DNA of 35,648 nucleotides. Source: a virus (lineage: Duplodnaviria > Caudoviricetes). Made by a program: the position numbers and the translations under genes. Each line of letters begins with the position of its first letter. The first letter of the stretch is position 1. The notes beneath the pieces are model-generated. The model was not told the DNA's origin, did not search any database, and saw nothing but the letters and a program-made list of their open reading frames with translations. The DNA is taken from positions 1 to 35,648 of the IMG/VR virus record IMGVR_UViG_3300027720_000196; one strand, 5' to 3'. Positions 4,575 through 30,918 of the stretch are shown piece by piece.

Positions 4575-4660
4575 TTCTTTTTCCTTGAAATTATATACTG
4601 TGCAAACATATACACTATGATAATGCATGCTAGTCCTACACAGGTATAATAGAATATCAT
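4571..4660 (-). CDS. Small single-pass membrane protein (29 aa)
   Basis: MIFYYTCVGLACIIIVYMFAQYIISRKKK. Start overlaps the queE stop (TGATG) and stop overlaps the next ATG (ATGA); hydrophobic core followed by a basic tail. Confidence 0.6.
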   Translation of the reverse strand: MIFYYTCVGLACIIIVYMFAQYIISRKKK

Positions 4661-5514
4661 CAAGTACCCCACTCATTTTTAAATAACGGCACTTGCAAAC
4701 GATCACTGTAACGCCATCCACGTTTCATAGCCGCCAGTGCCACATTCTTTGCATTGAGTGTATAAACACTTTCCACACCACCCACTGGCATTAGATAAAC
4801 GTGTCCTTTGAATCCTGCTTCTCTAAATTCTTCAACAGCATGTTCTGCATCAATAATATCTTCTGTTGTTGCTACTACAAATTTAAGATAAGCTGTGCCT
4901 ACTTCTTCATACTCACAAACAACTTCTGGGAGAATAGCCTCAAACCAATTCTCTCCACTTGCTGGCAGTTTAGCACTTACACTAAACGTAAGTTCTCTGC
5001 CCACTACACTATTCCACTTTCTCAAGTATTCTTTAAATTCCGGAGTAAGTTTTTGAGTACCATTTGTTTCAAATGTAATCTCTTTTAGACCACGCATTCT
5101 AGAGTTGTTAATCAAATCTGGATAAGCACGTTGCCAACCCAGCAAAGGTTCTCCACCTGTAATAACAAGGTGCTCATCTTCCCAATGATCTTGCGGAAGA
5201 ATTTCCATAATTCGATCTGCAATTGCTTCGCTGGTGAGCATGGGCGACAGATCTTTGAAGTCTGGATGCCAACTGGCATAGCTGTCACAACCTGTACTAA
5301 CTAAGGGCAAGTCTTCATATTTTGTAAACGGCGTAATCATTGTATGTGTGGCCGCAATGTCAGTTGCTTCGTGACTCGTTTCACCACGTGGCATACCAAA
5401 GCCAGCACATTTAAAATTACATCCAAATGTGCGCAGAAACACAGAAGGGACGCCCATGTAGCGTCCTTCACCTTGGATACTGTAAAACAGTTCAGCTATT
5501 TTTATTTTGCTCAT
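4660..5514 (-). CDS. queE: 7-carboxy-7-deazaguanine synthase (radical SAM)
   Basis: ELFYSIQGEG, FLRTFGCNFKC...GCDS, ITGGEP, ETNGT, LMPVG, RLQV. ATGA overlap places the start at 5514. Confidence 0.92.
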   Translation of the reverse strand: MSKIKIAELFYSIQGEGRYMGVPSVFLRTFGCNFKCAGFGMPRGETSHEATDIAATHTMITPFTKYEDLPLVSTGCDSYASWHPDFKDLSPMLTSEAIADRIMEILPQDHWEDEHLVITGGEPLLGWQRAYPDLINNSRMRGLKEITFETNGTQKLTPEFKEYLRKWNSVVGRELTFSVSAKLPASGENWFEAILPEVVCEYEEVGTAYLKFVVATTEDIIDAEHAVEEFREAGFKGHVYLMPVGGVESVYTLNAKNVALAAMKRGWRYSDRLQVPLFKNEWGT

Positions 5515-5900
5515 ACACAATCCTGTTCATTTGCCATTTTCTTTATTGTAGCACGTTCTTCTTTGTTTTGCCTAGCATTACGAAAAGCAGTAACATCTTC
5601 AATTGCGTTTTTTAAAGTTTCAGCATAATTGAGTGCTTGTTGTTTATTTAGGTGTACACTGGATTCTGTATCAACATAGCCCTTAGTCAGCAGAGTCCAA
5701 ATATGATCCCAACGTTTTTTACTCCACCAATTTGTTTTGCCTGTGGTATAAATGGTTACTTGAATATCGCAGTCATCCGCTTCTACCCACAGGTTATGAT
5801 TGTGAGTTTCATCTCCGCAATTACAAGCGACTCGGTAGACTCTGCTGTCTCCCCAATCGTTTGTTTTTAATATGCCTTCTGCTGGAATTTGATACTTCAT
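5511..5900 (-). CDS. Hypothetical protein with CxC-x4-HxH putative metal site
   Basis: ORF coupled to both neighbours; contains CNCGDETHNH. Confidence 0.7.
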   Translation of the reverse strand: MKYQIPAEGILKTNDWGDSRVYRVACNCGDETHNHNLWVEADDCDIQVTIYTTGKTNWWSKKRWDHIWTLLTKGYVDTESSVHLNKQQALNYAETLKNAIEDVTAFRNARQNKEERATIKKMANEQDCV

Positions 5901-6115
5901 TCTACATCCTCCTCAAACCATTCGTCAACCATTGTTTCTGCTTCGTCTTGCGTTAACGCTGGCACAAAAATTCTAGCAGGGTGTCCAACTGAATGCTGAA
6001 TGTTAAATTTTACTACACCGGCAGGTATGCGATCAAATTCACGTTCCACAATAAATTCTTGTAAATTTTTAGCACGGTTAATTATTTGATCAGTTAAGTC
6101 TTTAGCTGTGGTCAT
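5897..6115 (-). CDS. Hypothetical protein (72 aa)
   Basis: ATGA overlaps on both sides. Confidence 0.65.
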   Translation of the reverse strand: MTTAKDLTDQIINRAKNLQEFIVEREFDRIPAGVVKFNIQHSVGHPARIFVPALTQDEAETMVDEWFEEDVE

Positions 6116-6948
6116 CTTGGGGCAAAGTCCTGTTGTAGTTTAATGTTATCAAAAAATTCTTTCTTTGTTCCTGCGTCAGTAGTGAATGCACCTTTGAGTA
6201 CAGTAGTCTGTGTTAAACTGGAATGTGCCATAATGCCACGATTCTCACAGCACCCGTGTACAGCTTGAATATATACTCCCACATTCTCGCTGTCAGTTGC
6301 CTTCATTATTTCTCGGGCAATATCATTGCACAGTTCTTCCTGTAGTGTACCACGACGAGCACACCACTGTGCTATTCTGGTATACTTGCTGAGACCAATA
6401 AGTTTATTAGCGGCAATGATACCGATGTAGGCAACCCCAGATACAGGCTGGTGGTGATGAGAACACATACTTCGAAGCTCACTACGTACCACAAGCATAC
6501 CTTCGTAGCGGTCGGCGCTGTCATTTGGAAAAGCTGTTGCATCTGGTGCTGGTTCATATCTGCCCTCCATTACTTCGTTAAAGTACATTTTAGCCAGTCG
6601 TTTTGCTGTGCCTTTTGAGTTAGGATCAGTTTCACGATCAATAAGCAAACTATCTAACACCAGTTCAAATGCTTGTGCAGCTTCGTTGATTAAATGTTCT
6701 TTATCGCTTTCATGCAGGTAGTCACTGATATTATCCCCTGCCCAAAAGCGTTTGCCTTCACGTTTCATTCTCATGCGGATTGCGCCTGCCAATGTTCCTT
6801 CTTTGTATCCGCCATCGCCTGCCATTGCGTCTAGTCCAGTTTCTGTTTTAACATGTACTTCTTTTTTTGCAGTTATTATTTGGTCTGCTACAAATTTGAT
6901 ATCGGCATCAGAATGAAATACGGGATCGGGTTTAAAGTCTTTAGTCAT
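6112..6948 (-). CDS. folE: GTP cyclohydrolase I
   Basis: RSMCSHHHQP, GLSKYTRIA, LQEEL, HGCCENRG, KKEFF; AGGAG SD. Confidence 0.95.
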   Translation of the reverse strand: MTKDFKPDPVFHSDADIKFVADQIITAKKEVHVKTETGLDAMAGDGGYKEGTLAGAIRMRMKREGKRFWAGDNISDYLHESDKEHLINEAAQAFELVLDSLLIDRETDPNSKGTAKRLAKMYFNEVMEGRYEPAPDATAFPNDSADRYEGMLVVRSELRSMCSHHHQPVSGVAYIGIIAANKLIGLSKYTRIAQWCARRGTLQEELCNDIAREIMKATDSENVGVYIQAVHGCCENRGIMAHSSLTQTTVLKGAFTTDAGTKKEFFDNIKLQQDFAPR

Positions 6949-6966
6949 CGTTACTCCTATGTTTGT

Positions 6967-6995
6967 ATTATATAGGTTTATTTAGGTTTTTGCAA
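6967..6995 (-). promoter_or_regulatory. Sigma70-type promoter TTGCAA-N17-TATAAT, with CTAAATA in the spacer
   Basis: Hexamers at 6995-6990 and 6972-6967, directly upstream of folE. Confidence 0.8.
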
Positions 6996-7007
6996 GAAAT
7001 TTTAAGC

Positions 7008-7208
7008 TCAAATGTATTCACTTAACAGTATTTGGCACAGGTTGTAATCTTTTTGATTCTTAAATGTAAAAGCCATATCTTCATCTCGTGGGTGATATGT
7101 GAACTTGTTACCAGGTAATCCAAAAACTTCCACTACATCGGCACATATTTCATTCCACCAGTTATTATCTTGTCCAGTCCACTGGATTTTAATTGTTAGA
7201 TTTTCCAT
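7008..7208 (-). CDS. Hypothetical protein (66 aa)
   Basis: Short ORF in the operon. Confidence 0.6.
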   Translation of the reverse strand: MENLTIKIQWTGQDNNWWNEICADVVEVFGLPGNKFTYHPRDEDMAFTFKNQKDYNLCQILLSEYI

Positions 7209-7353
7209 CTCTTTCCAACATTTTTAATTCATCTTCGAGATATTCTCTATAACTAGATAACACTTCGGAAGCATGAATGTTTTCCGAATTTTTTTCAATA
7301 TCTTCAACAACTCGTTTAATTTTTTCTTGTAATTCTTCAACAGTTAATGTCAA
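7189..7353 (-). CDS. Hypothetical coiled-coil protein (54 aa, TTG start)
   Basis: TAAGGAG SD 6 nt before TTG 7353, which overlaps the upstream TGA. The longer track ORF is probably over-extended. Confidence 0.6.
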   Translation of the reverse strand: MTLTVEELQEKIKRVVEDIEKNSENIHASEVLSSYREYLEDELKMLERDGKSNN

Positions 7354-7550
7354 TTTGAACTCCTTACAGATCTCAGGCCGCTGGCGCCGCCTAGTAAAAT
7401 GGCAAATGCTGCCCACGTTTCCCAAGTTAGTGGAATGTTCAATACAGGAAATAGTGTATTCAAACTCCAAATACCTAAAATAGGTCCAATAGCAATCACA
7501 ATTACAATTAAAGCAATGCCTAAAATAAGTTTAATTAGTGATGATGTCAT
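7350..7550 (-). CDS. Small two-TM membrane protein (66 aa)
   Basis: MTSSLIKLILGIALIVIVIAIG...WETWAAFAILLGG; ATGA overlap with the PRTase stop. Confidence 0.65.
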   Translation of the reverse strand: MTSSLIKLILGIALIVIVIAIGPILGIWSLNTLFPVLNIPLTWETWAAFAILLGGASGLRSVRSSN

Positions 7551-8038
7551 AACCAAAAATCCTCCCAGGGATAAACAAGCCAACAATCTTCTTCTGCTTT
7601 ATTTACTGTCCACACATAATAGTCTGGATCTTTAAACTGGCTCGATTGATTGTGTGTCAATACTGCAAATCGAACATTATCTCCCCATATACTTTCCCAT
7701 TTGGGATCGTTAGGGAAACAACCGTCAGGCCAATCATTCTTAATCCATGCAACAGTGGATCCTTGATCGTTAATGTCATCGACTATAAGAATTTTTTTAC
7801 CTGCATAAGCATCTTCAGCCATACCAAGATTGCTAACACAATCGCCGCCATCTCGTAGACTAATGTCAAGGCTATTCATTTTAATGCCAGTGTATTGACT
7901 TAACAAATTAGCAGGAACAAGCCCGCCACGTGTAATGCCTACAATATAATCTGGGCGCCAATTGTGATTATGCATTTGTTTAGCAATATCCAAACATGCA
8001 CCTTGAACATTGCGCCAAGTGTAATAAACTTTTTTCAT
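7547..8038 (-). CDS. Type I purine phosphoribosyltransferase (xanthine/guanine PRT-like)
   Basis: IVGITRGGLVPA, PRPP loop ILIVDDINDQGST, C-terminal WLVYPWE. Confidence 0.9.
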   Translation of the reverse strand: MKKVYYTWRNVQGACLDIAKQMHNHNWRPDYIVGITRGGLVPANLLSQYTGIKMNSLDISLRDGGDCVSNLGMAEDAYAGKKILIVDDINDQGSTVAWIKNDWPDGCFPNDPKWESIWGDNVRFAVLTHNQSSQFKDPDYYVWTVNKAEEDCWLVYPWEDFWL

Positions 8039-8265
8039 GCTACTAGTCCATCGGCTAATTTAACAAGTTCTTCTTTTGTCATAAAGAAATTGTATGTTTG
8101 ACTGTCTTGCACTTGGCCGTCTTTAATACTTTCTTGAATAATATCAAGACTAAACAGGCCTTTTGGTGCTAGTACTTCGTGTTTAGTTACACGTACTCTG
8201 AATCCTTCAGATTCTTTAACAATTATTTCTTTGCGTGTGTGCGCTATTGATTCATGCAACATCAT
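8035..8265 (-). CDS. Hypothetical protein (76 aa)
   Basis: AAGGAG SD; ATGA overlap with the PRTase gene. Confidence 0.65.
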   Translation of the reverse strand: MMLHESIAHTRKEIIVKESEGFRVRVTKHEVLAPKGLFSLDIIQESIKDGQVQDSQTYNFFMTKEELVKLADGLVA

Positions 8266-8671
8266 TTTCTCCTTTAATTGATTCCCACATTCTGTATTTA
8301 GAAAGTTCTATCATGTACTCATCATACAGTTTCTTTAGTTTCGGATGCTTACGTTCAAGTATAGCATCTCTTTCAGGAATTTGCAATACTTTTTCAATTA
8401 TATCCAACCGTTCTTCCAAGTCTCGCCCATTAATAACCACTCGACCTTTGACTTCTAATTCTGGTGGACTTTGATTAACCTTGAGTACAGTGTCATTTGA
8501 ATTAGACCAACTTGTGCCGTTAGACCCACTTGTTAAAAAAGCACCAGTGGTATTAGTGGGATAAACAGTTCCAACTGTTAGTGGAGTTGCTGGCGGAATA
8601 GCACCATATCCAACACTCACTGTACTGCCAACGAGGCCATTACTGACGGCGTTCTTCAAGATAGTGGTCAT
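8252..8671 (-). CDS. Hypothetical S/T/G-rich protein with helical C-terminus
   Basis: Likely start ATG 8671 (MTTILKN); C-terminus LEERL..IE..L...KHPKLKKLYDEY. Confidence 0.65.
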   Translation of the reverse strand: MTTILKNAVSNGLVGSTVSVGYGAIPPATPLTVGTVYPTNTTGAFLTSGSNGTSWSNSNDTVLKVNQSPPELEVKGRVVINGRDLEERLDIIEKVLQIPERDAILERKHPKLKKLYDEYMIELSKYRMWESIKGENDVA

Positions 8672-9110
8672 TGTGTATCCATTTGTTATTAACGAGAAAT
8701 CCCCACTCCCGACGTTGTGGGCCAGGCATAAACAGCGTCCACGGTGTAACACCCGGTTTCAGTTCAATACGATGATAACTAGAAGGACTACAAATACGAA
8801 AGTGTCCAGGTCCACGCCAATGCTTGGTCTCACTGAGCATTTTGCCGTATTCAAAATTAGGAGTGTATTCGTAATAGCCACCTGCCAGTATCAATGTGGC
8901 ATAGGACCAAGGGTGATCATGCACATCTCCAGGATCTCCTTTGTGGAACTTGTGCAAGAACACATTAAACGGAAAATGTTTACGATCCTTTAAAAACAAA
9001 TAGTAGCGTGTTAGCAAAGGCTCGTTGCATTGACGATCCATAATAATACGCTTTCGGTCCCGTTGGTCCAGCCAATTAAGGACGCGGTCTCTTATCTTCT
9101 GGAGTGTCAT
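8640..9110 (-). CDS. Cupin (RmlC-like) fold protein
   Basis: Metal-binding cupin pattern VHDHPW, GGYYE, YHRIEL, WTLF..G...REWGF. Confidence 0.75.
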   Translation of the reverse strand: MTLQKIRDRVLNWLDQRDRKRIIMDRQCNEPLLTRYYLFLKDRKHFPFNVFLHKFHKGDPGDVHDHPWSYATLILAGGYYEYTPNFEYGKMLSETKHWRGPGHFRICSPSSYHRIELKPGVTPWTLFMPGPQRREWGFLVNNKWIHNDHYLEERRQ

Positions 9111-9483
9111 AATGATCTTTCACAAGTTTATAAACAGTTTTAAATTTTTCTAATGCTATTTTTAAGCCCGGATATTCCTCGCACATTTTTTGTACACGAT
9201 CAAAATCTGGAAATTGATTAACCCATTCTTCGGGCAACTGTATTTTAAATGTTGATGTGTCAATGTTTGACGAACTAGTCAGGGATGGAATACTTGTTGC
9301 AATTGATATTGCACCAATTGCATTGCCGTTACCATATGTGTATGATGGTGATGATACATACGTTATACTATTGCTAGTATTGAAAGAACTAAAATCAATA
9401 GTGTCCGTACCACTAATGGTTATAGTGTCTATTGTACTACTTGATATTGTTGAGCAACTCGTGTGCTGAGAAGTAGTTGTCAC
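9076..9483 (-). CDS. Hypothetical S/T-rich protein
   Basis: GTG at 9483 with GGAG 7 nt upstream; C-terminus MCEEYPGLKIALEKFKTVY. Confidence 0.65.
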   Translation of the reverse strand: MTTTSQHTSCSTISSSTIDTITISGTDTIDFSSFNTSNSITYVSSPSYTYGNGNAIGAISIATSIPSLTSSSNIDTSTFKIQLPEEWVNQFPDFDRVQKMCEEYPGLKIALEKFKTVYKLVKDHYDTPEDKRPRP

Positions 9484-10531
9484 GTAAAGACTCCGTTTGT
9501 TTGTGCAGCATAGGAAGTCTAGTTTTGTAATTTTCCATATGCTCAATTATTGTTTTGCAAATAAAAGGCCTGTATCTGTTATAAGCTTCAAAACTTTCAG
9601 TCCATTCGCTGGGATATTTAAATGTGTCAAACGCCATTTCACTATAGCTAAGTCTATCTGGCACCATGGGAATAGAATCCACAATAGCCCCTTCGTACCA
9701 ACTGATGCCAAGTGTTTCTTGCAAGTTGGCACTGAACACCATTTTAGATTCGCCCAACAAATTATGGTATTCGTTTTTTGTTAATTGCTGATCTTGACAA
9801 ACTACAAATTCATATTGCGGCAAATGCGTGGCCAAGTCTCGGAAAATATCAACTTGTTTCTCTGGAGCAATACGATGTGGAAACAAGATAAGATCACGTT
9901 TGGGCATGTGCTTGTACATGGCTAGCGTATCTTGCATATATTCCATGGGCCAACCGGTGCGCACAAATTTACCATTGTCATACCGTTCAGCAAAATCTTC
10001 TTCGTACCATGGGTTTTCTGAGATACATCCGTCGTGTAGTAATTCATCGATAAACAGTTTAACGTGGAATTCTGTAGCAAAGTAGTTGTGATCAAATGCA
10101 TGATAGAAACTCTTCTCAGCATGTCTCACCCAGGGTTTGTTACCAACCAGTCTGCCTAGGAAGTCTTGTGGATCATATGAACCAGCATGCCAAAGTCCGT
10201 GTGTAGTTACTGGAATACCCAATAACTCACTCATGTATTTTAAATTTATGATACCAGGATGCCAAGCATCAGTAAAGATAAAGTGATCCCCGGAATGAAC
10301 GGCTCCGTTACAAAATAAACGGCCCATCTGTTCCACTTGACTAGCCTTGTAGATATTAGTGCCGCCAAAGTTGAGAAATGCTCCAGGAGTGGTAGCACTA
10401 GGAATATCCGTAGGACCTGATATAATGTTGACATTGTGCCCTGCCTTTCGTAGTAGTGCAGGTACATGGGTCTTCCATTGACCCGTGTACCTTGTCTCAA
10501 CTGACTCTAAATCAATTAAGAAGATAGTCAT
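9437..10531 (-). CDS. Glycosyltransferase, GT-B fold (GT4/family-1-like)
   Basis: LILFPHRIAPEKQ and SANLQETLGISWYEGA..IPMVP match the GT-B C-terminal nucleotide-sugar binding pattern (E-x7-E). Confidence 0.82.
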   Translation of the reverse strand: MTIFLIDLESVETRYTGQWKTHVPALLRKAGHNVNIISGPTDIPSATTPGAFLNFGGTNIYKASQVEQMGRLFCNGAVHSGDHFIFTDAWHPGIINLKYMSELLGIPVTTHGLWHAGSYDPQDFLGRLVGNKPWVRHAEKSFYHAFDHNYFATEFHVKLFIDELLHDGCISENPWYEEDFAERYDNGKFVRTGWPMEYMQDTLAMYKHMPKRDLILFPHRIAPEKQVDIFRDLATHLPQYEFVVCQDQQLTKNEYHNLLGESKMVFSANLQETLGISWYEGAIVDSIPMVPDRLSYSEMAFDTFKYPSEWTESFEAYNRYRPFICKTIIEHMENYKTRLPMLHKQTESLRDNYFSAHELLNNIK

Positions 10532-10782
10532 TAGTTTTCGAATCGTTCGTGCTTGGGATTCTTACCCAAGTAAGGTTTACGTTCGCCTGTGTAGGCTTTC
10601 TTAGGACGACGACTCTTTTCAAAATTGCGCCACTGCCAACTTTCCCTATTGTACAAATCTGCTTCATCAAACGGCGCACCTTCAATTTTGCACCAATCCA
10701 AAAATCCTTCAAGGTCGTCAAAGATTTTGACGATGTCCGGGCGGGTTTCGAAATAACTGATATCTTTGTAATTCTTAGCCAT
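10531..10782 (-). CDS. Hypothetical protein (83 aa, basic C-terminus)
   Basis: GAGG SD; TAATG overlap with the glycosyltransferase gene. Confidence 0.7.
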   Translation of the reverse strand: MAKNYKDISYFETRPDIVKIFDDLEGFLDWCKIEGAPFDEADLYNRESWQWRNFEKSRRPKKAYTGERKPYLGKNPKHERFEN

Positions 10783-10794
10783 AATAGCCTCTTT

Positions 10795-11184
10795 TTAATA
10801 TTTAATAAACGAACCATTTTCCCCGTCTTCGGAGACCTCAATCCAAACCTCACGGTTGGGATACTTTTGTGAAATCTGTTGATATAAATCTCCAGACATC
10901 ATTTCACAACTTTTGTAGTCTAACGCTAGTATACTATCTTTGTAAAGATTTAGCAACCATCGTTTGAACTGAATAAACTCGATATCACGATCATCGTGGG
11001 TGACACCAATCCACACTTTAAAGTGAAAGATGTGACGATGTGGATAGCCTAGAAAACTTACGTCATATTCATCACCTGTTGCTAGATTAGGATCTGTAAG
11101 TGCTGCCGGATACTTGTGCATACCTTCTTTGTTAAAGGTAACCCAAATCATTTTGTTAGGTCTGATGTCTTGTTTAATAATCAT
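10795..11184 (-). CDS. QueD-like T-fold protein, DpdL-like (predicted CDG decarboxylase)
   Basis: LGYPHRHIF fits LxxxHRHxF instead of the QueD CxxxHGH motif; also DRDIEF, SCEMM, VSEDGENG. The DpdL motif is recalled from the phage deazaguanine literature. Confidence 0.7.
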   Translation of the reverse strand: MIIKQDIRPNKMIWVTFNKEGMHKYPAALTDPNLATGDEYDVSFLGYPHRHIFHFKVWIGVTHDDRDIEFIQFKRWLLNLYKDSILALDYKSCEMMSGDLYQQISQKYPNREVWIEVSEDGENGSFIKY

Positions 11185-11735
11185 TCGAATAAACTTCCAA
11201 AGTTGTTGTCTGCCGCACCTAGAATAGTTTTCATAGCAGAGTGCGGAATTCTGTATTGATAAGAGTTTTTTGTTTGACGTTCAAAATATCCCCACTTGGA
11301 TCCTCTAACATAATCTCCAGTGTGGCCTTTTTGAATTAATTTACGACCTTCTTCATAGCCTTCTTTAAGTTTTTCTTGAATATACGGATCTGTGAAATCG
11401 TAAATCTTAGCTTCTTTAATTACAGATTCGGTATCACTATAAGATACACGATACTGATTTTGGCATTTTTCTTTTAAAGAAGATTCGTCCCATGAGTTCT
11501 TTTTAATTTGCTCCACAGTGATAGAGCCAACTGTGTGTGCTGAAGTAGATTCTTCTTTTCGAGTTTTGACTTCTAAACCCTCTTCGGGAAGATCCACACC
11601 TTTGCCTGTGTTAAAATTGTGTCCTGCGCTGATCAAATCTCGTTGTATTTTTCGACCAACGTTGCCGTGTTGTTGTTTAGGTACAGTTTTACCTACAAGC
11701 GGTATTTTTAGTTTTGTAACTTTTGGCTTAGTCAT
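11181..11735 (-). CDS. PD-(D/E)xK endonuclease, MutH/Sau3AI-like
   Basis: GNVGRKIQ...GKGVDLPEEGLEVKT resembles the MutH-type D-x6-ExK active site. Confidence 0.6.
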   Translation of the reverse strand: MTKPKVTKLKIPLVGKTVPKQQHGNVGRKIQRDLISAGHNFNTGKGVDLPEEGLEVKTRKEESTSAHTVGSITVEQIKKNSWDESSLKEKCQNQYRVSYSDTESVIKEAKIYDFTDPYIQEKLKEGYEEGRKLIQKGHTGDYVRGSKWGYFERQTKNSYQYRIPHSAMKTILGAADNNFGSLFE

Positions 11736-12252
11736 TTGATTTAATTATCGGAGTGTCATTGACATATTGATCCCAGTGTGTATAAGTTTCCTTAGTCATC
11801 AGGCTCGGCAGATGATGAGTCCAAACTCCAGGGTTTGTTTTGCCCCAAGTTAGGTCATCAATTTTAAGAGTTGCATTGTAATTAAACAATTTGATATACG
11901 GAATCTTAACACTGATCATGGGCACAAATGTGTTGTGCTCTGTCCACCCGTCTTCGTGCATTTGATCTGCATATTTTACATCAAAGTCTAAACTGACCCA
12001 GTACTTTAAATTAAGCAAGGGTGTGATCATTGTGTCCCAAGACTTCCAGTCTTCATGTGTCGCCGGATTAAAACTTTGACTGGTTCCAAGATAGATATGT
12101 TTGCATTCGTTGGTGTCTGCAAGTTGCATGATTTGTTCTATGTCTTGAACGCCTACCACAAACAAAGTTTTCATACCATAACACACAGTATGCTCCACTT
12201 CGTCTCCAATGAAAAAATCAATTTGTTTTCGGGCTTCGGTGTTTAGTCCCAT
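11728..12252 (-). CDS. Hypothetical protein (174 aa) within the modification cluster
   Basis: Globular ORF (GDEVEHT..GMKTLFVVG, HIYLG, KIDD..WGKTNPGVW) coupled to its neighbours. Confidence 0.75.
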   Translation of the reverse strand: MGLNTEARKQIDFFIGDEVEHTVCYGMKTLFVVGVQDIEQIMQLADTNECKHIYLGTSQSFNPATHEDWKSWDTMITPLLNLKYWVSLDFDVKYADQMHEDGWTEHNTFVPMISVKIPYIKLFNYNATLKIDDLTWGKTNPGVWTHHLPSLMTKETYTHWDQYVNDTPIIKSND

Positions 12253-13121
12253 TTGATATAACCTCTACTGTAACCACTCGGACGATTAACGCCGTCCGCA
12301 AACGCTTGTTGCCACTCTATGTTTCTATTATATGCTCTTGTCCAAAAAGAATCAACCTCGAGATAGCCGTTTTCAATCATCCAAACAGCATCTTTCATGC
12401 ATTGATGAAAATTTGGATTGCGTGGGCTTGGTTTAATGGTAGTGACAGCTTTCCAAAGTTGCGCTTGTGCTTCTTCTTTACTCACTGTTTTACCAACTGC
12501 ATCAACAATCACAGCATTGTTATTTAGATTTATATCTGTACCTAAAGCATATTTGCCACTTAGGTCGATCACTACATCATAACTTTCACTAGTACCAAGT
12601 AACAGTTTGTCTCCCCATAGGTCAACATTACTAGATCCTACAACATCTACATTTTCACAATGTTTAAATTTGGTCAATGTGTGATAAGCCACCCATGCTA
12701 GAAATCCACTGCCAATAATCAGTATTTTATCTTTTTTAGAACAATCAGCAACATCCACTGTATTAATACCGCAAGCAACTGGCTCAATAATGTAGCGTGG
12801 ATGAGCTTCGGGCACCCTTACGTATTCATTTCTACGTACATTATAAATGTCTGCATATGCTGGCTCACCGCGAGTAGCCACATAGTCTCCTTTGGCAATT
12901 CCTGTAACATTCAATCCAATTTTAATTACTCTGCCAAGACCTTCATGTCCTTGCATGTGCAACGGCAATGGACCAAAGTTTCCATTCATCATGTCGATGT
13001 CACTGCGACACACACCAGTCATAACCGCTTGTACTTCAATGTCGTCGAGGCCTATTTCTGGTTTGTTGTATTCTACTTCTTCAAAGAAGCCTTGCCCTGT
13101 TGTTTGTAAACAGCGTGTCAT
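12243..13121 (-). CDS. Zn-dependent medium-chain (polyol/threonine DH-like) dehydrogenase
   Basis: GVCRSD, GHEG, IEPVAC, Rossmann IIGSGFLA; lacks the 4-Cys structural Zn lobe. Confidence 0.88.
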   Translation of the reverse strand: MTRCLQTTGQGFFEEVEYNKPEIGLDDIEVQAVMTGVCRSDIDMMNGNFGPLPLHMQGHEGLGRVIKIGLNVTGIAKGDYVATRGEPAYADIYNVRRNEYVRVPEAHPRYIIEPVACGINTVDVADCSKKDKILIIGSGFLAWVAYHTLTKFKHCENVDVVGSSNVDLWGDKLLLGTSESYDVVIDLSGKYALGTDINLNNNAVIVDAVGKTVSKEEAQAQLWKAVTTIKPSPRNPNFHQCMKDAVWMIENGYLEVDSFWTRAYNRNIEWQQAFADGVNRPSGYSRGYIKWD

Positions 13122-14002
13122 AAATTTTCTATTCTTTCATGGATCCAAGTATCAATTGCATATTGCTTTAACCAAAACTCAGAATTATCAATATTATCTA
13201 TAGCATCAACAATCATATTGTGATACGCTTCTTCTGGGCACCATCCTAAATCAAATTGTTCTATTGTATTATCTGGCATAACAAACATAATGGAACTGTC
13301 TTCCTCAGTCAAGCTACGCCAATTAGCCGCACATCGCCATTTGTCACCAAAGTTGATTACACATACATCATCAACATCGTATGTGCCATTGGGATTAACA
13401 AATCCATAGTCAGTACTGTCGATGTCTTTTAATTCCCAACATTGCATTGCAGATTGGCCAGACACAGGTTCACGTTTCCAATTAGGATTCATGGCCACAT
13501 ACAAACTCAACAAGTGTGGCATTAAATCTCTACTAACACCTCCAAACGCCAACTTCTTAGTTGTGAACCAACTACCTGGACTAGGAATACAGTTCTTTCT
13601 AATCCACCGTATCTTTACAGTCTTGGCTTTGCTGGCTAGTTCAGTCAGCTCAGTTATATTACTACGCCACATGTTGTTTTTAACCATTATGAAGCGTGTT
13701 TGTTTGAATTCAGTTACTAGTTTAGCCCAAGTGTCACTAACAGCAACTCCGGGTTTTTCAATAAACACAATTTTACTATGCGGAGCAACTCTAGCCGCAA
13801 TTTCAAAATGTGTAAAGTTGGGAGTGCAGATATGAACAGTGTCAAACAATCCGTGTATCAGTAATGCTTTATCAACAGAATCAAAATCTGCACCTTTGCT
13901 GATATCTTGGTCCACTGTAACAACTGTGTGACCAAGTTTTGTCAGCACATCTTTATACAGGTTACCAATACCCATGCCAATGACTAGACTACGCTTGTTC
14001 AT
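13118..14002 (-). CDS. Gfo/Idh/MocA-family NAD(P)-dependent oxidoreductase
   Basis: VIGMGIG, VHICTPNFTH, VFIEKP, SWF....AFGG..RDLMPH; likely start ATG 14002. Confidence 0.88.
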   Translation of the reverse strand: MNKRSLVIGMGIGNLYKDVLTKLGHTVVTVDQDISKGADFDSVDKALLIHGLFDTVHICTPNFTHFEIAARVAPHSKIVFIEKPGVAVSDTWAKLVTEFKQTRFIMVKNNMWRSNITELTELASKAKTVKIRWIRKNCIPSPGSWFTTKKLAFGGVSRDLMPHLLSLYVAMNPNWKREPVSGQSAMQCWELKDIDSTDYGFVNPNGTYDVDDVCVINFGDKWRCAANWRSLTEEDSSIMFVMPDNTIEQFDLGWCPEEAYHNMIVDAIDNIDNSEFWLKQYAIDTWIHERIENL

Positions 14003-14243
14003 TTTTCTTTTCCTCATAGGATCTAAACATGCGAGTTACTGCTTCCATTTGTTCTTGGAATACATCGGGACAGTTTTCAGCGGCCTGTTTCATATCCCAG
14101 TCGCTAGGATAGTGCCTCAGCATACTTCTCGCTGTTTCTCGAACTAATTTGGGTACTCTGGGTGTATGCTCAGAATTACAAAGATCCAATAAGAATCTCC
14201 GTGTAGCTAAAACAGCACGATATCTTTCATCAGGTAACGTCAT
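13989..14243 (-). CDS. Hypothetical protein (MTLPDER...LRHYP type, 84 aa)
   Basis: Clean ORF with a recurrent phage small-protein pattern. Confidence 0.7.
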   Translation of the reverse strand: MTLPDERYRAVLATRRFLLDLCNSEHTPRVPKLVRETARSMLRHYPSDWDMKQAAENCPDVFQEQMEAVTRMFRSYEEKKNEQA

Positions 14244-15924
14244 GTATACTTGCCTCTAATGCATCTAATTTATCAGTATCAAAATCTTCTTCATCTTCCG
14301 ATTGTACACTATCCGCACCCACTTCTTCGAACAATTCGGAGAATTTTCCGCTGGCATTAACTGTTTTCTTGCCAGTGGCACCACGAGTGCCAGGAATGGC
14401 TTGCCAAAATTTATCAAAGCCGTCGATAATTGCCAGTGCTGTTTCTCTATCCGATGCACTGAAAATAGCATCAACTACATCTTTGAAATAAACACGTTCA
14501 AATTTTTCATCTACCAACATTGCAGGACATAGACCAGCATCGTATTGACGATTGGCTTCTTGTACACTGTTCAAATGCAACCAAACATTGTGACCCATCA
14601 TGATTGCGTATGTAAAACTGTCCCAACTGGTCTTGCCTTCTTTGCCAATCTTATTCAAATCTCCTGGACCGTAGATGCAGATATCTTTAACTTGAACACC
14701 GTCCATTAATGGACTAGTGGTAAACGATTCAAAATGTTTGTCTTGCACCACTACATCTTGGAAGAGTCGTGTGTCTTTGCTGTATTTTTTGTTGTCAAGA
14801 GACGGCAACATCCGGTAAAGCCACTTTTGTCTGTCTTCAATTTCTGTTTGGACATAGATTTGTCCGTTTGCTGTGGCGAGGAAGGGACTTGCGCAGTCAA
14901 AAGATATGGTAAAGTTTTCATTATGATATTTCCTAATAGCTCGTTGTATGTCAGTTAATAACAATGCCCACTCTAACTTAGAGGTGCCCAGGAAGTGCAT
15001 CCAGTCTTGATGACCTTTTTCAAGAAGTCCATCAAACTTCAGTGCCACTAATCTACGTAACACTAGATCAACGTCGCACATGTTTTGTCCACCCATGGCC
15101 CATCCGTTGAAAGGTTTATCATATTTTGTTGGATCGCAGAAGTCTTTCATCTGCTGATACCAGTCGTCTGCTTGTGCGTGATTTTCACCTTGTAACACAT
15201 TTAAAAACTTACAAGCACCTGTGCGATGCTTAATAAAGTATTCATTGTTATACTTGGTTGCTGCTACTGCTTGAGGATAATCCCCAACACCGCTGTTCTT
15301 AGCACCCACAGGACTACGACCGACCCATGCTGGAATATCAAGAACCATGCCATAGTCCATGAGCGCATCCATCCATGCCAACACTTGTCCACGTTTTTTT
15401 TGAGCCGCATCCAGTTTGGCCTGGTAGATTTTCACGTGATCAATTTTGTTATATTTTGGATTGCCATTTTTGTCAGTCTTGGGATGCCCAGTGGGATGTA
15501 ATTGTGGTACTAATTCTACACCCTTGGCTACAGCTTCAGCCATGCGTTGTGCAACTACTGGTCCTGCCGGATCATTCCACTCACCTTCCCACACTCCTTT
15601 ACCAATCTGGAAACCACCTGAATCACCCAGTACCCAACTAGTACTACGATCTCTATTCCGAAACATGTCTTCGCTTGGATCGGGTTTAGACAAATCCAAG
15701 TTGGCATGCCCTGCTGAATACAAACAATGGTCAAAGTAGAATGCCGCATTGGGATTCAAATAGTTCATAGCTTCGATACCTAGTGGACCAAAACTCGCAG
15801 GAATGCGAGCTGGGTCCACATAGTTACTGTAACGTTGCTTGCCTATATACGTGCTGTAAAAGCCTGACGTTGCCGGCAGGAAATACGCATAATCGCTTTG
15901 AGCTGCTGTCAGGTTTTTATTCAT
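14230..15924 (-). CDS. dpdA: DpdA-like DNA guanine transglycosylase (TGT fold)
   Basis: TGT motifs GDSGGFQ, MVLDIP, NVLQG, GWAMGG, HFLG, SFDCASP. Lacks the CxCxxC Zn site of tRNA TGT; co-located with folE, queE and replication genes. Confidence 0.8.
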   Translation of the reverse strand: MNKNLTAAQSDYAYFLPATSGFYSTYIGKQRYSNYVDPARIPASFGPLGIEAMNYLNPNAAFYFDHCLYSAGHANLDLSKPDPSEDMFRNRDRSTSWVLGDSGGFQIGKGVWEGEWNDPAGPVVAQRMAEAVAKGVELVPQLHPTGHPKTDKNGNPKYNKIDHVKIYQAKLDAAQKKRGQVLAWMDALMDYGMVLDIPAWVGRSPVGAKNSGVGDYPQAVAATKYNNEYFIKHRTGACKFLNVLQGENHAQADDWYQQMKDFCDPTKYDKPFNGWAMGGQNMCDVDLVLRRLVALKFDGLLEKGHQDWMHFLGTSKLEWALLLTDIQRAIRKYHNENFTISFDCASPFLATANGQIYVQTEIEDRQKWLYRMLPSLDNKKYSKDTRLFQDVVVQDKHFESFTTSPLMDGVQVKDICIYGPGDLNKIGKEGKTSWDSFTYAIMMGHNVWLHLNSVQEANRQYDAGLCPAMLVDEKFERVYFKDVVDAIFSASDRETALAIIDGFDKFWQAIPGTRGATGKKTVNASGKFSELFEEVGADSVQSEDEEDFDTDKLDALEASIHDVT

Positions 15925-16655
15925 TATTTAGATTGTGCTGGCAAAATGTAGTCGTACACAGTAACGCCACTGTCAACTGTGATGTTTAATGCACCTGCAT
16001 CAGCAATACGCATAGAAACATCGCCGGGCAAGTTCAAAATACTCTGAACCGCTGTGACAGGCCACGACCATGTTTGTTTTAATTTGCCATTTACGCCTGC
16101 TTGGAACACAAAGTTACCAGCGTGTGTGCTTGCATCACCAAAGCTAAACACTAGGTTACCATCTTTGGTAGATACCTGGAATGTTTTTTCATCACTGTGT
16201 GCTGCACTTTGGAATTTAAACTTTTGTATACTGGCCATTGTGGGTTTGAAATCAATGTCCCATGCTGCGCCTTTGAACTTAACAGTTTTCAACTTTTCGT
16301 TGATAATGTCTTGATTCATAAAACGATAGTCGTTTTCAAAATCGCCTGCACCGTTTTGGAAATGCAAACCTGTTGGAATTGTTTCACCATTACGTTCTTG
16401 CTTAACTACTTTAATAGTAAAGTTTTCTTTATATTCTGGGCACTTGAGAATAATGTCTAGCCTGTTAAGGTTAGGCATACCAAAGGTACCTTCAAAATCT
16501 TCCACTGGCGCTTTGGCTTTTGCTGTTAAGATAACGCTACGGTCCTCAGCCATTGATTCGATTAACGCTTCTTTTTCTGTTGCACTAATTTTAACTAGTG
16601 GCAAAAAGCCTAAGTTATGTGTGTGTGCTACTAGGTCTTGTAAAAAGTCTTTCAT
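15924..16655 (-). CDS. Putative DNA polymerase sliding clamp (gp45/PCNA-like)
   Basis: 243 aa beta-rich protein ending YDYILPAQ, near the polymerase; GGAG SD before ATG 16655. Fold inferred, not searched. Confidence 0.7.
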   Translation of the reverse strand: MKDFLQDLVAHTHNLGFLPLVKISATEKEALIESMAEDRSVILTAKAKAPVEDFEGTFGMPNLNRLDIILKCPEYKENFTIKVVKQERNGETIPTGLHFQNGAGDFENDYRFMNQDIINEKLKTVKFKGAAWDIDFKPTMASIQKFKFQSAAHSDEKTFQVSTKDGNLVFSFGDASTHAGNFVFQAGVNGKLKQTWSWPVTAVQSILNLPGDVSMRIADAGALNITVDSGVTVYDYILPAQSK

Positions 16656-16673
16656 ATTGTTCTCCATGTTTAT

Positions 16674-16702
16674 AGTATATAGGTTTTTTGTGACTATGTC
16701 AA
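16674..16702 (-). promoter_or_regulatory. Sigma70-type promoter TTGACA-N17-TATACT
   Basis: Hexamers at 16702-16697 and 16679-16674, upstream of clamp-dpdA. Confidence 0.85.
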
Positions 16703-17473
16703 TTATTTTCTAACTCTTTTATTATATTTTATTGCCGATTCTAGGATACTTACAGACGTACTCAATCGATCAGAATACCATACAAATGCATTTGTGTCTT
16801 TGGAAAAACAAGCTCCTCCAAATCCACGAAGTCCATCTGGACCCGGAACTTGCATGTGACTTGATCCAATCCTGTCGTCTAGTTTAAGTAAACTAGTCAC
16901 AGTATCGAAATCAATATTATTAGCAAGACATGTATCGTACAATTGATTAAAAAATGCCACCTTGACACTTAAAAAACAATTAGTTGCATATTTGACCATG
17001 CTAGCTTCTGCAATAGTACAGTGGAACGATGTTTTAATTTTAGGTAATGACTCAAAAAATAGCTCATGCCATATGACTGAATTAATATCATCTCCACCTA
17101 ATATCATATATGTTTGATTTTTAAAGTCTTCATCTGCTGTAGAAGCTCTTAAAAATTCTGGACTATAACAGATATTGTGATCGGGATAATCTGCCACCAG
17201 TTTATTTAGGTAATCTGGCACAATTGTACATTTAATCAATACAGGTATAGTGATTGGTAACTGGTCCAATACACTACGCACTTGACTAACGTCACAATCA
17301 CCTAGTACAGTTGCCGGAGTTCCTACACAAATAATAGCACCATCTGCATCGGTGCAATCCTTTATCTCTGCCCTAGTGTATTTCGGATCTACAATATGTA
17401 AATCGTTTTTATCTTTAATAGCGTTAGCAACAGCCTTGCCAACAAATCCGTATCCTGCAATTATAATTTTCAT
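16703..17473 (-). CDS. UDP-glucose/GDP-mannose dehydrogenase family protein (short form)
   Basis: GYGFVG, ICVGTP, SPEFLR, KYATN.FL..K..FFN, DDRIG, GFGGACFSKD; no C-terminal UDP-binding domain. Confidence 0.9.
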   Translation of the reverse strand: MKIIIAGYGFVGKAVANAIKDKNDLHIVDPKYTRAEIKDCTDADGAIICVGTPATVLGDCDVSQVRSVLDQLPITIPVLIKCTIVPDYLNKLVADYPDHNICYSPEFLRASTADEDFKNQTYMILGGDDINSVIWHELFFESLPKIKTSFHCTIAEASMVKYATNCFLSVKVAFFNQLYDTCLANNIDFDTVTSLLKLDDRIGSSHMQVPGPDGLRGFGGACFSKDTNAFVWYSDRLSTSVSILESAIKYNKRVRK

Positions 17474-26832: not shown

Positions 26833-27059
26833 TTTTTAATTCCTCTAAATCCTGTGCCTACTGCAACTTCGCCACCCATAAACTTGGGCAAACTAAACCA
26901 TAACTTGAACCATTCTTCAGTTCCAGGTTTGATATTCTGTTCACGCATTATGACTGCTTTTTCTGTGCCAGTCACACTGATGTTGCTTCCGCCATAAGGT
27001 TGCAGACCTTTAAATTCTGTAATACCTGCCAACTTCTTAAGACGTGCTAGTTCATCCAT
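26829..27059 (-). CDS. Hypothetical protein (76 aa, start MDELARLKKLAG)
   Basis: GAGG SD and TAATG overlap with the dps stop. Confidence 0.7.
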   Translation of the reverse strand: MDELARLKKLAGITEFKGLQPYGGSNISVTGTEKAVIMREQNIKPGTEEWFKLWFSLPKFMGGEVAVGTGFRGIKK

Positions 27060-27496
27060 TATTTCACACTTGACCTCAACATCCAACTGTGCTTTTTATG
27101 TGCATCTTGTCTATCAGCTAGAAAATTACTCAACCCATGATCGCCATTTTGTTCAGCCATGTCAAATGTAATACGGAATATGTTAGCCATACGTTCGCTA
27201 TCTTCCAATAGTTCACGCAACATGTCAATCCACTCTGGCACGGCATTTTCATCTTTGACTTGTGACAGCATGCTGAACTTGCTGTAACTGGCAGGAGCAT
27301 ACACTTGTAATGCACGTAATTGTTCTGCAAACGTATCAATACTGTCATACACTTCGTCGTAAATTCTTTCAAACAACAAGTGATGTTGATAAAATAAAGG
27401 ACCTTCAGTGTTCCAATGGAAATTTTGTGCTTTGAGAGCAAATGCATATTCGCTAGCAAATGCTGTTTTTAGTGCCAAGTGATATTTCTCATCCAT
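27059..27496 (-). CDS. dps: Dps / ferritin-like DNA protection protein
   Basis: KAQNFHWNTEG..F...H.LFE, IDTFAE, HKKHSWMLRS. Confidence 0.92.
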   Translation of the reverse strand: MDEKYHLALKTAFASEYAFALKAQNFHWNTEGPLFYQHHLLFERIYDEVYDSIDTFAEQLRALQVYAPASYSKFSMLSQVKDENAVPEWIDMLRELLEDSERMANIFRITFDMAEQNGDHGLSNFLADRQDAHKKHSWMLRSSVK

Positions 27497-27498
27497 GA

Positions 27499-30485: not shown

Positions 30486-30859
30486 TATATACCCTTGTAC
30501 TTGCCAGCTTGTATGTGTTCTTGTATATCGTCGTGCATTTTGGAACAAGCTTCTTTGCACATTTTTTCTTCTAACTCATCGGGTAATTCACGTATGGGGA
30601 ATTTTTCTTTGTATTGTTTGTAGCATTCTTTTATGGCTTCTGCAAACATGTTGGCTTGTACCGGTTTCTTGGCATTGACTAAATCTAAACATTTAACCAA
30701 CACTGGAAAAACGTGACGACGGTATATACGGTCGTCGTTGTGCATGAAATGTAGTAGGTCTTCTATTAGATCGTAGTCTAACTCACGTTTATCGCCATGT
30801 TGTTTAACATATTCTAATTCTTTAAAATTAGCGTTTTCTAGTAACTCTTTTATAAGCAT
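30485..30859 (-). CDS. Hypothetical protein (124 aa, start MLIKELLE)
   Basis: First gene after the late promoter; TAATG overlap downstream. Confidence 0.7.
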   Translation of the reverse strand: MLIKELLENANFKELEYVKQHGDKRELDYDLIEDLLHFMHNDDRIYRRHVFPVLVKCLDLVNAKKPVQANMFAEAIKECYKQYKEKFPIRELPDELEEKMCKEACSKMHDDIQEHIQAGKYKGI

Positions 30860-30892
30860 TTTTATTCCCAATAGAACACTCTGGATTTAGAG

Positions 30893-30899: not shown

Positions 30900-30918
30900 C
30901 GCTTTTGCAATCAATGGG

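What the first reader, a model, noticed from the sequence alone, without database searches (positions are those of the whole stretch)
4660..17473. Candidate new DNA hypermodification: 7-deazaguanine pathway interleaved with sugar-synthesis and transfer genes
Seen: folE, queE, a DpdL-like T-fold gene and a dpdA-like gene are co-oriented and interleaved with a GT-B glycosyltransferase, a UDP-sugar dehydrogenase, Gfo/Idh/MocA and Zn-MDR oxidoreductases, a cupin, a PRTase and a 174-aa hypothetical, next to clamp and polymerase. No queC, queF, arcS or dpdC is recognisable here. Known: FolE-QueD-QueE make CDG and phage DpdA swaps deazaguanines into DNA. The derivatives I know (dG+, dPreQ0, dPreQ1, dADG, dCDG, dDG, methyl/formyl-dPreQ1) are not glycosylated. 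Inference: the locus installs a deazaguanine that is then decorated with an oxidised or epimerised sugar, a purine analogue of T4 glucosyl-hmC.
Basis: partly seen in the sequence, partly recalled or inferred. Interest (0 to 1): 0.9.

Follow-up and report, generated by a model that had tools for sequence, protein, structure and literature searches.

The report
Sugar-tailored deazaguanine DNA module in phage
A fragment of an uncultured freshwater giant phage carries the genes that likely swap guanine in its DNA for a 7-deazaguanine, together with a sugar-transferring enzyme that stays with those genes in unrelated phages and bacteria and an optional pair of sugar-type redox enzymes, which predicts a sugar-bearing purine in DNA that has not been measured.

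Summary
The genes are there as described, all on the minus strand. Core: TGT-like DpdA, DpdL, a GT4-type glycosyltransferase (GT), FolE, QueE. The GT is tied to the deazaguanine genes: 38 of 38 dpdA-picked loci; 6 of 12 cultured DpdL phage lineages; 16 of 17 further genome loci, mostly bacterial, put it beside dpdA. It is absent from phiST, the one DpdL phage measured as plain dDG. Best reading (0.55): a 7-deazaguanine, probably DG, is inserted into DNA and carries a sugar; acceptor and sugar unknown. The other sugar genes are accessory. Gfo+MDR occur in 10 of 38 loci and track a variant of the 174-aa protein (26 of 26 versus 0 of 139), not the GT; the Gfo's best PDB match is the glycoside 3-oxidase DgpA; the 174-aa protein weakly resembles a QueE without its iron-sulfur motif. 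PA5oct/Paride carry the core and a degenerate Gfo-MDR pair; PA5oct DNA is reported G-modified, structure unknown. UDP-sugar dehydrogenase, cupin and PRTase are loosely linked. This scan found the same module before on other genomes; my paper searches found no description of it.

The parts
4660..5520 (-). QueE, 7-carboxy-7-deazaguanine synthase (radical SAM)
   Evidence: phrog_2076 E 8e-51; C34, C38, C78, R30 nearly invariant in 19 phage QueEs
6112..6948 (-). FolE, GTP cyclohydrolase I
   Evidence: PF01227 E 3e-38
7547..8038 (-). Purine phosphoribosyltransferase (Gpt-like), loosely linked; may recycle released guanine (inferred)
   Evidence: PF00156 E 3e-14; 34 of 38 dpdA-picked loci; near queE in Paride and beside it in BUCT-ZZ01
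8640..9110 (-). Cupin, lineage-level accessory gene
   Evidence: phrog_4786 E 5e-33; 29 of 38 dpdA-picked loci; no hit in 14 loci of cultured phages
9437..10531 (-). GT-B, GT4-like retaining glycosyltransferase; core of the module
   Evidence: model pLDDT 92; Foldseek E 2e-9 and VIA Z 25 to GT-B sugar transferases; R220, K225, E280 invariant in 46 homologues, E272 nearly invariant in a 10-sequence set
10531..10782 (-). 83-aa conserved protein of unknown function between dpdL and the GT
   Evidence: 46 of 46 GT-picked and 38 of 38 dpdA-picked loci
10795..11184 (-). DpdL, T-fold QueD paralogue, proposed CDG decarboxylase
   Evidence: LxxxHRHxF motif at residue 45 (PMC10516641); 56% to PA5oct DpdL, 30% to phiST DpdL
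11181..11735 (-). 184-aa Sau3AI/MutH-like nuclease remnant, probably a mobile insert
   Evidence: NF040973 E 3e-4, far below cut-off; 6 of 46 loci
11728..12252 (-). 174-aa protein; partial barrel weakly like QueE but without the iron-sulfur cysteines; this copy is the variant (T57-S58, T135-W136) that goes with Gfo+MDR
   Evidence: model pLDDT 93; top VIA match B. subtilis QueE Z 6.0, rmsd 3.4, 125 aligned, two more QueEs in the top 19; profile comparison with QueE negative; variant in 26 of 26 loci with Gfo+MDR and 0 of 139 without
12243..13121 (-). Zn-dependent MDR oxidoreductase, accessory, always paired with Gfo
   Evidence: PF08240; zinc-ligand motifs intact in 21 of 21 related loci; lost in Paride
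13118..14017 (-). Gfo/Idh/MocA oxidoreductase, accessory; closest solved relative DgpA (glycoside 3-oxidase)
   Evidence: PF01408; 7xr9 DgpA E 2e-8; GxGxG, EKP and DxxxH motifs in 21 of 21 related loci; first two motifs lost in Paride
13989..14243 (-). 84-aa BPSL0761-family protein
   Evidence: NF041728 E 2e-18, above cut-off; 29 of 46 loci
14230..15924 (-). Large DpdA (TGT-like DNA-guanine transglycosylase)
   Evidence: 32% to PA5oct QCG76197 = DpdA3 of PMC10516641 Data S1; invariant D101-S-x-G-x-Q, D196, H310-x-L-G, D343 (mapping to TGT catalytic residues recalled); weak profile matches to phiST DpdA3 and BCSR5 DpdA2, E 7e-5 and 9e-5
15924..16667 (-). Sliding-clamp-like protein (context)
   Evidence: 31% to the Phosso gene annotated as sliding clamp
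16703..17473 (-). Short UDP-sugar 6-dehydrogenase (no C-terminal domain), loosely linked
   Evidence: PF03721 and PF00984; GFGGACFSKD motif; 17 of 38 dpdA-picked loci, at varying positions

Best explanation
This locus is a QueC-less, DpdL-type 7-deazaguanine module whose DpdA likely swaps guanines in phage DNA for 7-deazaguanine, and whose conserved GT4 glycosyltransferase is predicted to put a sugar on that base, with the Gfo-MDR-174-aa cassette as an optional unit that would likely edit the product. Steps: (1) FolE, a QueD outside the window and QueE make CDG from GTP (established chemistry; folE and queE shown, queD inferred from relatives). (2) DpdL removes the carboxyl group to give DG (published proposal, not proven). 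(3) DpdA exchanges G for the base in DNA (inferred from family and kept residues; PA5oct DNA is G-modified by restriction tests). (4) The GT transfers a sugar from an NDP-sugar to the base, before or after insertion (inferred from linkage). The likeliest acceptor is the exocyclic N2 amine, the one nucleophile shared by the DpdL, Gat-QueC and YhhQ settings in which this GT occurs and the site used in huimycin; C7 is second. (5) In about a quarter of relatives the Gfo oxidises a sugar hydroxyl, probably C3 as DgpA does, and the MDR reduces it again, which would give an epimer or keto-sugar; the 174-aa variant belongs to this step (inferred, about 0.35 given step 4). The purpose would be escape from host nucleases.
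For: GT, dpdL, the 174-aa and the 83-aa gene in 38 of 38 dpdA-picked loci with at least 7 kb downstream (80 loci fetched) and dpdA in 46 of 46 GT-picked loci with at least 9 kb upstream. GT beside dpdL or dpdA in six cultured lineages at 24-48% identity: Wroclawvirus, ACP17, Phosso, BUDD/X1, BCSR5, BUCT-ZZ01, and beside Gat-QueC, a PIG-L deacetylase and a Gfo in PhiXhv-12. GT next to dpdA in 16 of 17 loci L188-L204, mostly bacterial islands with no folE hit, with a YhhQ-like transporter gene adjacent in 4. GT absent from the whole genome of phiST, measured as plain dDG, and of five more DpdL phages, while three controls rang. In the second GT clade an NAD-dependent epimerase/dehydratase family occurs in 75 of 80 loci, typically right after the GT. 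Intact GT4 motifs and GT-B fold. [quoted passage not shown] ACP17 DpdA+DpdL without the GT gave no dDG in E. coli (PMC10516641). HuiG glycosylates a 7-deazaguanine derivative, linked at the C-2 position (PMC7439116).
Against: No measurement of any glycosylated base. The 38 and 46 loci are one phage family, so they are not independent. The GT's best structural matches are small-molecule and polysaccharide GTs; T4 alpha-glucosyltransferase ranks 37th (Z 18.0) and a pterin glucosyltransferase 21st (Z 20.0). Vibrio phage 2.275.O has a DpdA of this family with QueC and QueF and no GT, and RHph_I1_18 has DpdL and a 422-aa DpdA3 without GT. phiST DpdA+DpdL, which needs no GT, also failed in E. coli, so the ACP17 failure proves little. 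Gfo+MDR follow the GT tree poorly (11 changes against a shuffled mean of 19.9) and give no diagnostic GT column. In Paride the pair has lost its catalytic motifs and sits 27 kb away. In Phosso the dpdA-like gene is about 170 kb from the GT.
Confidence: 0.55

Rival explanations
1. The DNA carries plain dDG or dCDG; the GT and the other sugar enzymes act on something else (cell envelope, virion or host proteins) and stay linked for regulatory or historical reasons.
For: Phage GT and UDP-glucose dehydrogenase pairs are common in Microbacterium phages; jumbo phages carry surface-polysaccharide gene clusters (PMC7824862 passage); DG offers no obvious hydroxyl acceptor.
Against: The GT family was found next to deazaguanine genes in every setting examined, including compact bacterial GT-dpdL-dpdA and yhhQ-GT-dpdA units, and is absent from the phage known to make plain dDG.
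Confidence: 0.2
2. The GT makes a free small molecule, a huimycin-like deazaguanine glycoside or a pterin glycoside (FolE, T-fold enzyme, two reductases and a GT4, as for cyanobacterial biopterin glucoside; pathway recalled), which never enters DNA.
For: Pterin glucosyltransferase 5zer at Z 20.0 and other small-molecule GT4s lead the fold list; HuiG acts on the free base; Gfo and MDR are small-molecule oxidoreductases.
Against: In bacterial islands the GT stays with dpdA when folE, queE and sometimes dpdL are gone, which ties it to the transglycosylase and not to pterin synthesis.
Confidence: 0.12
3. The TGT-like enzyme and the GT work on tRNA, as a phage counterpart of queuosine glycosylation (QTMAN/QTGAL; recalled).
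For: TGT-like clusters among language-model neighbours (score 0.92); YhhQ-like transporter genes in four bacterial units; two earlier scan notes report likeness to QTMAN.
Against: The genes sit beside clamp and polymerase; PA5oct DNA itself behaves as G-modified; no QueA/QueG or tRNA gene in the window; no QTMAN-type Pfam family among the 15 hit by 46 GT members (inconclusive).
Confidence: 0.07
4. The base enters at the nucleotide level: the PRTase makes a 7-deaza-GMP that is reduced, phosphorylated and used by the adjacent polymerase, with or without later glycosylation.
For: PRTase in 34 of 38 loci and near queE in Paride and BUCT-ZZ01; GT-less DpdL phages carry kinases and MazG/dUTPase-like genes beside dpdL.
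Against: No such kinase or MazG-like gene in this locus; DpdA keeps its conserved residues; no PRTase hit in the ACP17, BUDD and BCSR5 loci.
Confidence: 0.06

Closest known systems
DpdL-type dDG system of Cellulophaga phage phiST (FolE, QueD, QueE, MazG-like, DpdL, DpdA3; PMC10516641)
   Same: FolE, QueE, DpdL with LxxxHRHxF, a DpdA, no QueC or QueF.
   Different: phiST has a 259-aa DpdA3, MazG and a kinase-like gene and no GT; this locus has a 564-aa DpdA, a GT4, the 174-aa and 83-aa proteins and a redox pair, and no MazG or kinase.
Wroclawvirus (PA5oct, Paride) dpdA-GT-dpdL-queE locus; listed as DpdA3/DpdL in PMC10516641 Data S1; G-modified by restriction tests in PMC12191111
   Same: Orthologous pol-clamp-dpdA-GT-dpdL-PRTase-queE-exonuclease order; Gfo-MDR-174-aa triplet in the same order.
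   Different: The triplet is 27 kb away, its Gfo and MDR have lost catalytic motifs and its 174-aa protein is of the common type. The GT between the two listed genes (QCG76198) has no column in that table, and the base is not identified in the sections read.
T4 glucosyl-hydroxymethylcytosine (alpha- and beta-glucosyltransferases)
   Same: A GT-B enzyme predicted to add a sugar to a modified DNA base; T4 AGT aligns at Z 18.0.
   Different: Purine rather than pyrimidine; base placed by transglycosylation; no hydroxymethyl acceptor known; T4 AGT is not the closest structure.
Huimycin cluster (HuiG; PMC7439116)
   Same: FolE/QueD/QueE pathway plus a glycosyltransferase that puts a sugar on a 7-deazaguanine derivative.
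   Different: A free secondary metabolite with QueC and a methyltransferase and no DpdA; sequence relation of HuiG to this GT not tested.
DgpA glycoside 3-oxidase (PMC11239390, abstract start only)
   Same: Best solved relative of the Gfo (E 2e-8); DxxxH and EKP motifs kept.
   Different: DgpA starts C-glycoside breakdown with DgpB/C; here the partner is an MDR and the 174-aa protein, and the substrate is unknown.

Membership tests
DpdL-type 7-deazaguanine DNA modification system | FolE and QueE present | tested here: met
DpdL-type 7-deazaguanine DNA modification system | QueD present | tested here: inconclusive
   not in the 35.6-kb contig; in 4 of 5 longer relatives
DpdL-type 7-deazaguanine DNA modification system | DpdL with LxxxHRHxF | tested here: met
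DpdL-type 7-deazaguanine DNA modification system | DpdA-family transglycosylase | tested here: met
   32% over 460 residues to QCG76197, published as DpdA3; weak profile matches to phiST DpdA3 and BCSR5 DpdA2; no Pfam TGT or PDB sequence hit
DpdL-type 7-deazaguanine DNA modification system | No QueC or QueF | tested here: inconclusive
   none in the window; no full QueC in 5 relatives, one partial match; QueF not searched genome-wide; own genome incomplete
DpdL-type 7-deazaguanine DNA modification system | dDG measured in virion DNA | not testable with these tools
   needs LC-MS/MS
GT4-type retaining glycosyltransferase | Two-Rossmann GT-B fold | tested here: met
   (Z 25.4, rmsd 3.3, 316 aligned)
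GT4-type retaining glycosyltransferase | EX7E motif and phosphate-binding Arg/Lys (motif recalled) | tested here: met
   E272...E280, R220, K225
T4-type DNA glucosyltransferase system | Hydroxymethyl-base acceptor and its synthase in the locus | tested here: not met
   no thymidylate-synthase-like or TET/JBP hit among 47 window ORFs; the rest of the genome is not held
T4-type DNA glucosyltransferase system | GT acts on DNA | not testable with these tools
   needs an enzyme assay
QueE radical-SAM family (174-aa protein) | QueE-like partial barrel | tested here: inconclusive
   top VIA match but Z 6.0 is within background; Foldseek and profile comparison negative
QueE radical-SAM family (174-aa protein) | Three-cysteine iron-sulfur motif | tested here: not met
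   only C24 and C50, neither conserved
QTMAN/GTDC1 queuosine mannosyltransferases | Family-level sequence match | tested here: inconclusive
   no such Pfam family among 15 matched by 46 members at E 0.5; no direct comparison made
Bacterial Dpd restriction-modification island | PADLOC Dpd models hit | tested here: not met
   0 hits for 28 proteins, including 5 window proteins and the island DpdAs

The most novel reading that the evidence does not exclude
These phages, and some bacterial islands, make a sugar-bearing purine in DNA: 7-deazaguanine glycosylated at N2 or C-glycosylated at C7. The sugar is diversified by swappable cassettes: an epimerase in the marine clade, PAPS-reductase-like and deacetylase genes in BUDD and BCSR5, and here a DgpA-like 3-oxidase with an MDR reductase working with a QueE-derived protein that has lost its iron-sulfur cluster.
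Probability: 0.25. Interest if true: 0.9.

Novelty: new variant of a known kind. Interest (0 to 1): 0.64.

Why it matters
The eight 7-deazaguanine derivatives in PMC10516641 carry no sugar, and the glycosylated DNA bases I know are pyrimidines (recalled). A glycosylated deazaguanine would be a new chemical class of DNA base in a very abundant phage family: about 1100 and 910 stored IMG/VR stretches were estimated for the two GT clades. It is directly testable, because cultured Pseudomonas jumbo phages of therapeutic interest (PA5oct, Paride) carry the core and PA5oct DNA is already reported as G-modified without a structure. It would also supply a DNA-labelling enzyme candidate and a possible missing factor for DpdL reconstitution.

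Tried and rejected
The deep representative search for the GT never ran. The 174-aa protein gave no ESM Atlas hit, no PDB sequence hit, no Foldseek hit at E 0.001 and no profile match to QueE, DpdA or GT (probability 0.2-3%); the QueE likeness rests on a Z of 6.0 and on motifs matched by eye. DpdA has no PDB sequence hit and was not folded. PADLOC gave nothing. A scan with the Vibrio 2.275.O DpdA found no loci. I expected Paride's 174-aa protein to show the T57-S58/T135-W136 variant because it sits beside Gfo-MDR; it does not, and Paride was not among the 165 sequences counted. I expected Gfo+MDR to track the GT if they made its donor; they do so only weakly. The DpdL tree showed no clustering of the trait (21 changes), but the protein is short. 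An RNA library holds identical contigs over parts of the locus, MDR included, but contigs do not show transcription, so I do not count it. The UDP-sugar dehydrogenase was rejected as core: it is variable in presence and place, and only 2 Pseudomonas records of 98 matched it although 11 Wroclawvirus records match the core genes. No complex was predicted.

Full report
Observation. The window is a whole 35,648-base viral contig with jumbo-phage genes (polymerase B, clamp-like protein, exonuclease, ClpB-like ATPase, DnaJ). Between 4660 and 17473 all named genes lie on the minus strand with gaps of at most 76 bp. QueE, FolE, PRTase, cupin, MDR, Gfo and the UDP-sugar dehydrogenase have profile hits. 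The three genes that matter most have no named profile hit and were identified otherwise. DpdL has the published LxxxHRHxF motif and matches phiST DpdL. The 564-aa protein is 32% identical to PA5oct QCG76197, which PMC10516641 Data S1 lists as DpdA3, and keeps invariant D101-S-x-G-x-Q, D196, H310-x-L-G and D343 (that these are the TGT catalytic positions is recalled). The 364-aa protein folds confidently (pLDDT 92) as a GT-B enzyme (Z 25.4) with the GT4 EX7E motif and invariant R220 and K225. QueD is not in the window; 4 of 5 longer relatives have one and none has a full QueC.

Is the GT part of the deazaguanine system? In 80 IMG/VR loci picked by the GT, the 46 with at least 9 kb upstream all have dpdA, dpdL, the 174-aa and the 83-aa gene. 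In 80 loci picked by DpdA, the 38 with at least 7 kb downstream all have the GT. These are one phage family, with some contigs in both sets, so the weight lies on distant cases. DpdL finds 28 phage records in 12 lineages (my grouping). Six lineages have the GT within about 3 kb of dpdL: Wroclawvirus, ACP17, Phosso, BUDD/X1, BCSR5, BUCT-ZZ01. Six have none in the whole genome: phiST, RHph_I1_18, Bakedbeans, Ahp1, D479, MA9V-3 (three controls rang). Four of those six have kinase or MazG/dUTPase-like genes beside dpdL, and phiST is measured as plain dDG. PhiXhv-12 has the GT beside Gat-QueC, a PIG-L deacetylase and a Gfo. A scan of species genomes gave 25 loci. L180-L187 are phage-like contigs in MAGs. 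Of L188-L204, 16 of 17 have dpdA next to the GT, as GT-dpdL-dpdA in Magnetospirillum and others, or with a YhhQ-like gene in Pelagibacterium, Azospirillum, Shimia and a Rhizobiaceae MAG; the exception ends at a contig edge. Against strict coupling: Vibrio 2.275.O has a DpdA of this family with QueC and QueF and no GT, and Phosso's dpdA-like gene is about 170 kb from its GT-dpdL-folE-queE group.

The other sugar genes are accessory. Gfo and MDR come as a pair in 17 of 46 and 10 of 38 loci and in none of 58 deduplicated loci of the second, 25%-identical GT clade, which all carry an NAD-dependent epimerase-like gene; in the window's clade the pair and the epimerase never co-occurred (21 and 9 of 91). 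On quick trees of 92 rows (91 deduplicated loci plus the window), presence of the pair needs 1 change on the 174-aa tree, 5 on DpdA, 9 on the clamp (87 rows), 11 on the GT and 21 on DpdL, against a shuffled mean near 20 (FastTree, kin share labels). The 174-aa copies beside the pair have T57-S58 and T135-W136 where other members of the clade mostly have A-N and D-F: 26 of 26 against 0 of 139. No such columns appear in DpdA, GT or DpdL. Adjacency can explain part of this, but switches at otherwise conserved positions suggest a shared substrate. Wroclawviruses carry Gfo-MDR-174-aa in the same order 27 kb from dpdA; in Paride both enzymes have lost catalytic motifs and the 174-aa protein is of the common type. 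The window's Gfo is most like DgpA among solved structures (E 2e-8), which oxidises C3 of the glucose in puerarin (PMC11239390, abstract start). A 3-oxidase plus a zinc reductase suggests epimerisation, but this is inference. The 174-aa model (pLDDT 93) has B. subtilis QueE as top match (Z 6.0) and two more QueEs in the top 19 of 48,161 chains. Five strand motifs can be paired by eye with the window's QueE, the cysteines are absent, and a profile comparison is negative, so this is a lead only. The protein is found in Paride and ACP17 and not in Phosso, BCSR5, BUDD, BUCT-ZZ01 or PhiXhv-12. The dehydrogenase is in 17 of 38 loci at varying places and has homologues in Microbacterium and Campylobacter phages. 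The cupin is in 29 of 38 loci and in none of 14 loci of cultured phages.

Mechanism. GTP to CDG by FolE, QueD and QueE is established. DpdL decarboxylation is a published proposal that failed to reconstitute. DpdA insertion is inferred; PA5oct DNA resists five G-containing restriction sites and the section read gives no structure for its base (PMC12191111). Glycosylation is inferred from linkage. DG has no hydroxymethyl group, so the T4 analogy is loose; because the same GT family sits in DpdL, Gat-QueC and YhhQ settings, I favour the shared N2 amine, as in huimycin (PMC7439116), over C7. Whether the sugar is added before or after insertion is open. Overall 0.55; the rivals are plain dDG with an unrelated GT (0.20), a free metabolite (0.12), tRNA (0.07) and nucleotide-level entry (0.06).

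Literature seen. PMC10516641: parts 2-5 of 7 of the text, supplement part 1 of 19 and a term search of the supplement ('glycosyl' 3 times, the two shown being 'transglycosylase'). PMC12191111: passages and section 8. PMC7824862, PMC10761892, PMC12783734, PMC13326640 and bioRxiv 10.64898/2026.04.15.718813: passages. PMC7439116: passages and section 3.2. Searches listed no title or abstract start on a glycosylated deazaguanine in DNA, and only PMC10516641 names DpdL. The library lacks most subscription papers, bioRxiv supplements are closed, and the END paper's extended tables were not seen; they may bear on PA5oct.

Earlier scan notes. After stating my reading I found at least 16 notes on other genomes with the same module and the same prediction. 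They agree but are not independent evidence. In the short entries shown I did not see the variant-specific link of the 174-aa protein to Gfo+MDR, the DgpA match, the QueE-like lead or the degenerate Wroclawvirus triplet; I saw only their summaries.

Verdict. A real, widespread and apparently undescribed variant of 7-deazaguanine DNA modification, with a well-supported extra enzyme and an unmeasured product. Interest 0.64.

Noticed in passing
L188-L201, L203 (bacterial genomes): Compact GT-dpdL-dpdA(-queD) or yhhQ-GT-dpdA units in Alphaproteobacteria and others, near resolvases/integrases, MASE1 two-component pairs and defence-type genes (DUF3375, ABC-3C, HEPN). No PADLOC hit for the proteins tested. 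An unknown 538-592-aa protein follows dpdA in L189, L199, L200 and L201; a candidate new bacterial DNA-modification island.
   Followed up: partly
L283:8140-10417 (Paride 122139-124416): Gfo-MDR-174-aa triplet kept in order although both oxidoreductases have lost catalytic motifs; possible pseudo-enzymes with a structural role.
   Followed up: partly
L088, L091, L092, L094 around dpdL: GT-less DpdL phages pair dpdL with a 259-290-aa DpdA3 or similar-sized gene, a nucleotide kinase and MazG or dUTPase-like genes, which hints at nucleotide-level entry of dDG rather than post-replicative exchange. DpdL is fused to a longer N-terminal part in Bakedbeans (L090) and MA9V-3.
   Followed up: partly
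L095:7669-11755 (PhiXhv-12): Gat-QueC, PIG-L deacetylase, GT and Gfo in one run: a possible glycosylated archaeosine-type base; only a faint TGT match elsewhere in the genome.
   Followed up: partly
L005:8152-9519, L007:8374-8868, L096-L098: PAPS-reductase-like and PIG-L-like genes beside the GT in BCSR5, BUDD and relatives; BUCT-ZZ01 (L093:6388-7731) has a second GT4.
   Followed up: no
window 11181-11735: Sau3AI/MutH-like nuclease remnant between the 174-aa gene and dpdL, present in 6 of 46 related loci.
   Followed up: partly
window 27059-35140: Host-like genes: ferritin/Dps-like protein, cytidyltransferase, ClpA/B-type ATPase, peptide deformylase and DnaJ.
   Followed up: no
window 20589-23474: 961-aa protein with a peptidoglycan-binding domain in a stretch of raised G+C (up to 0.49 against about 0.40).
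   Followed up: no
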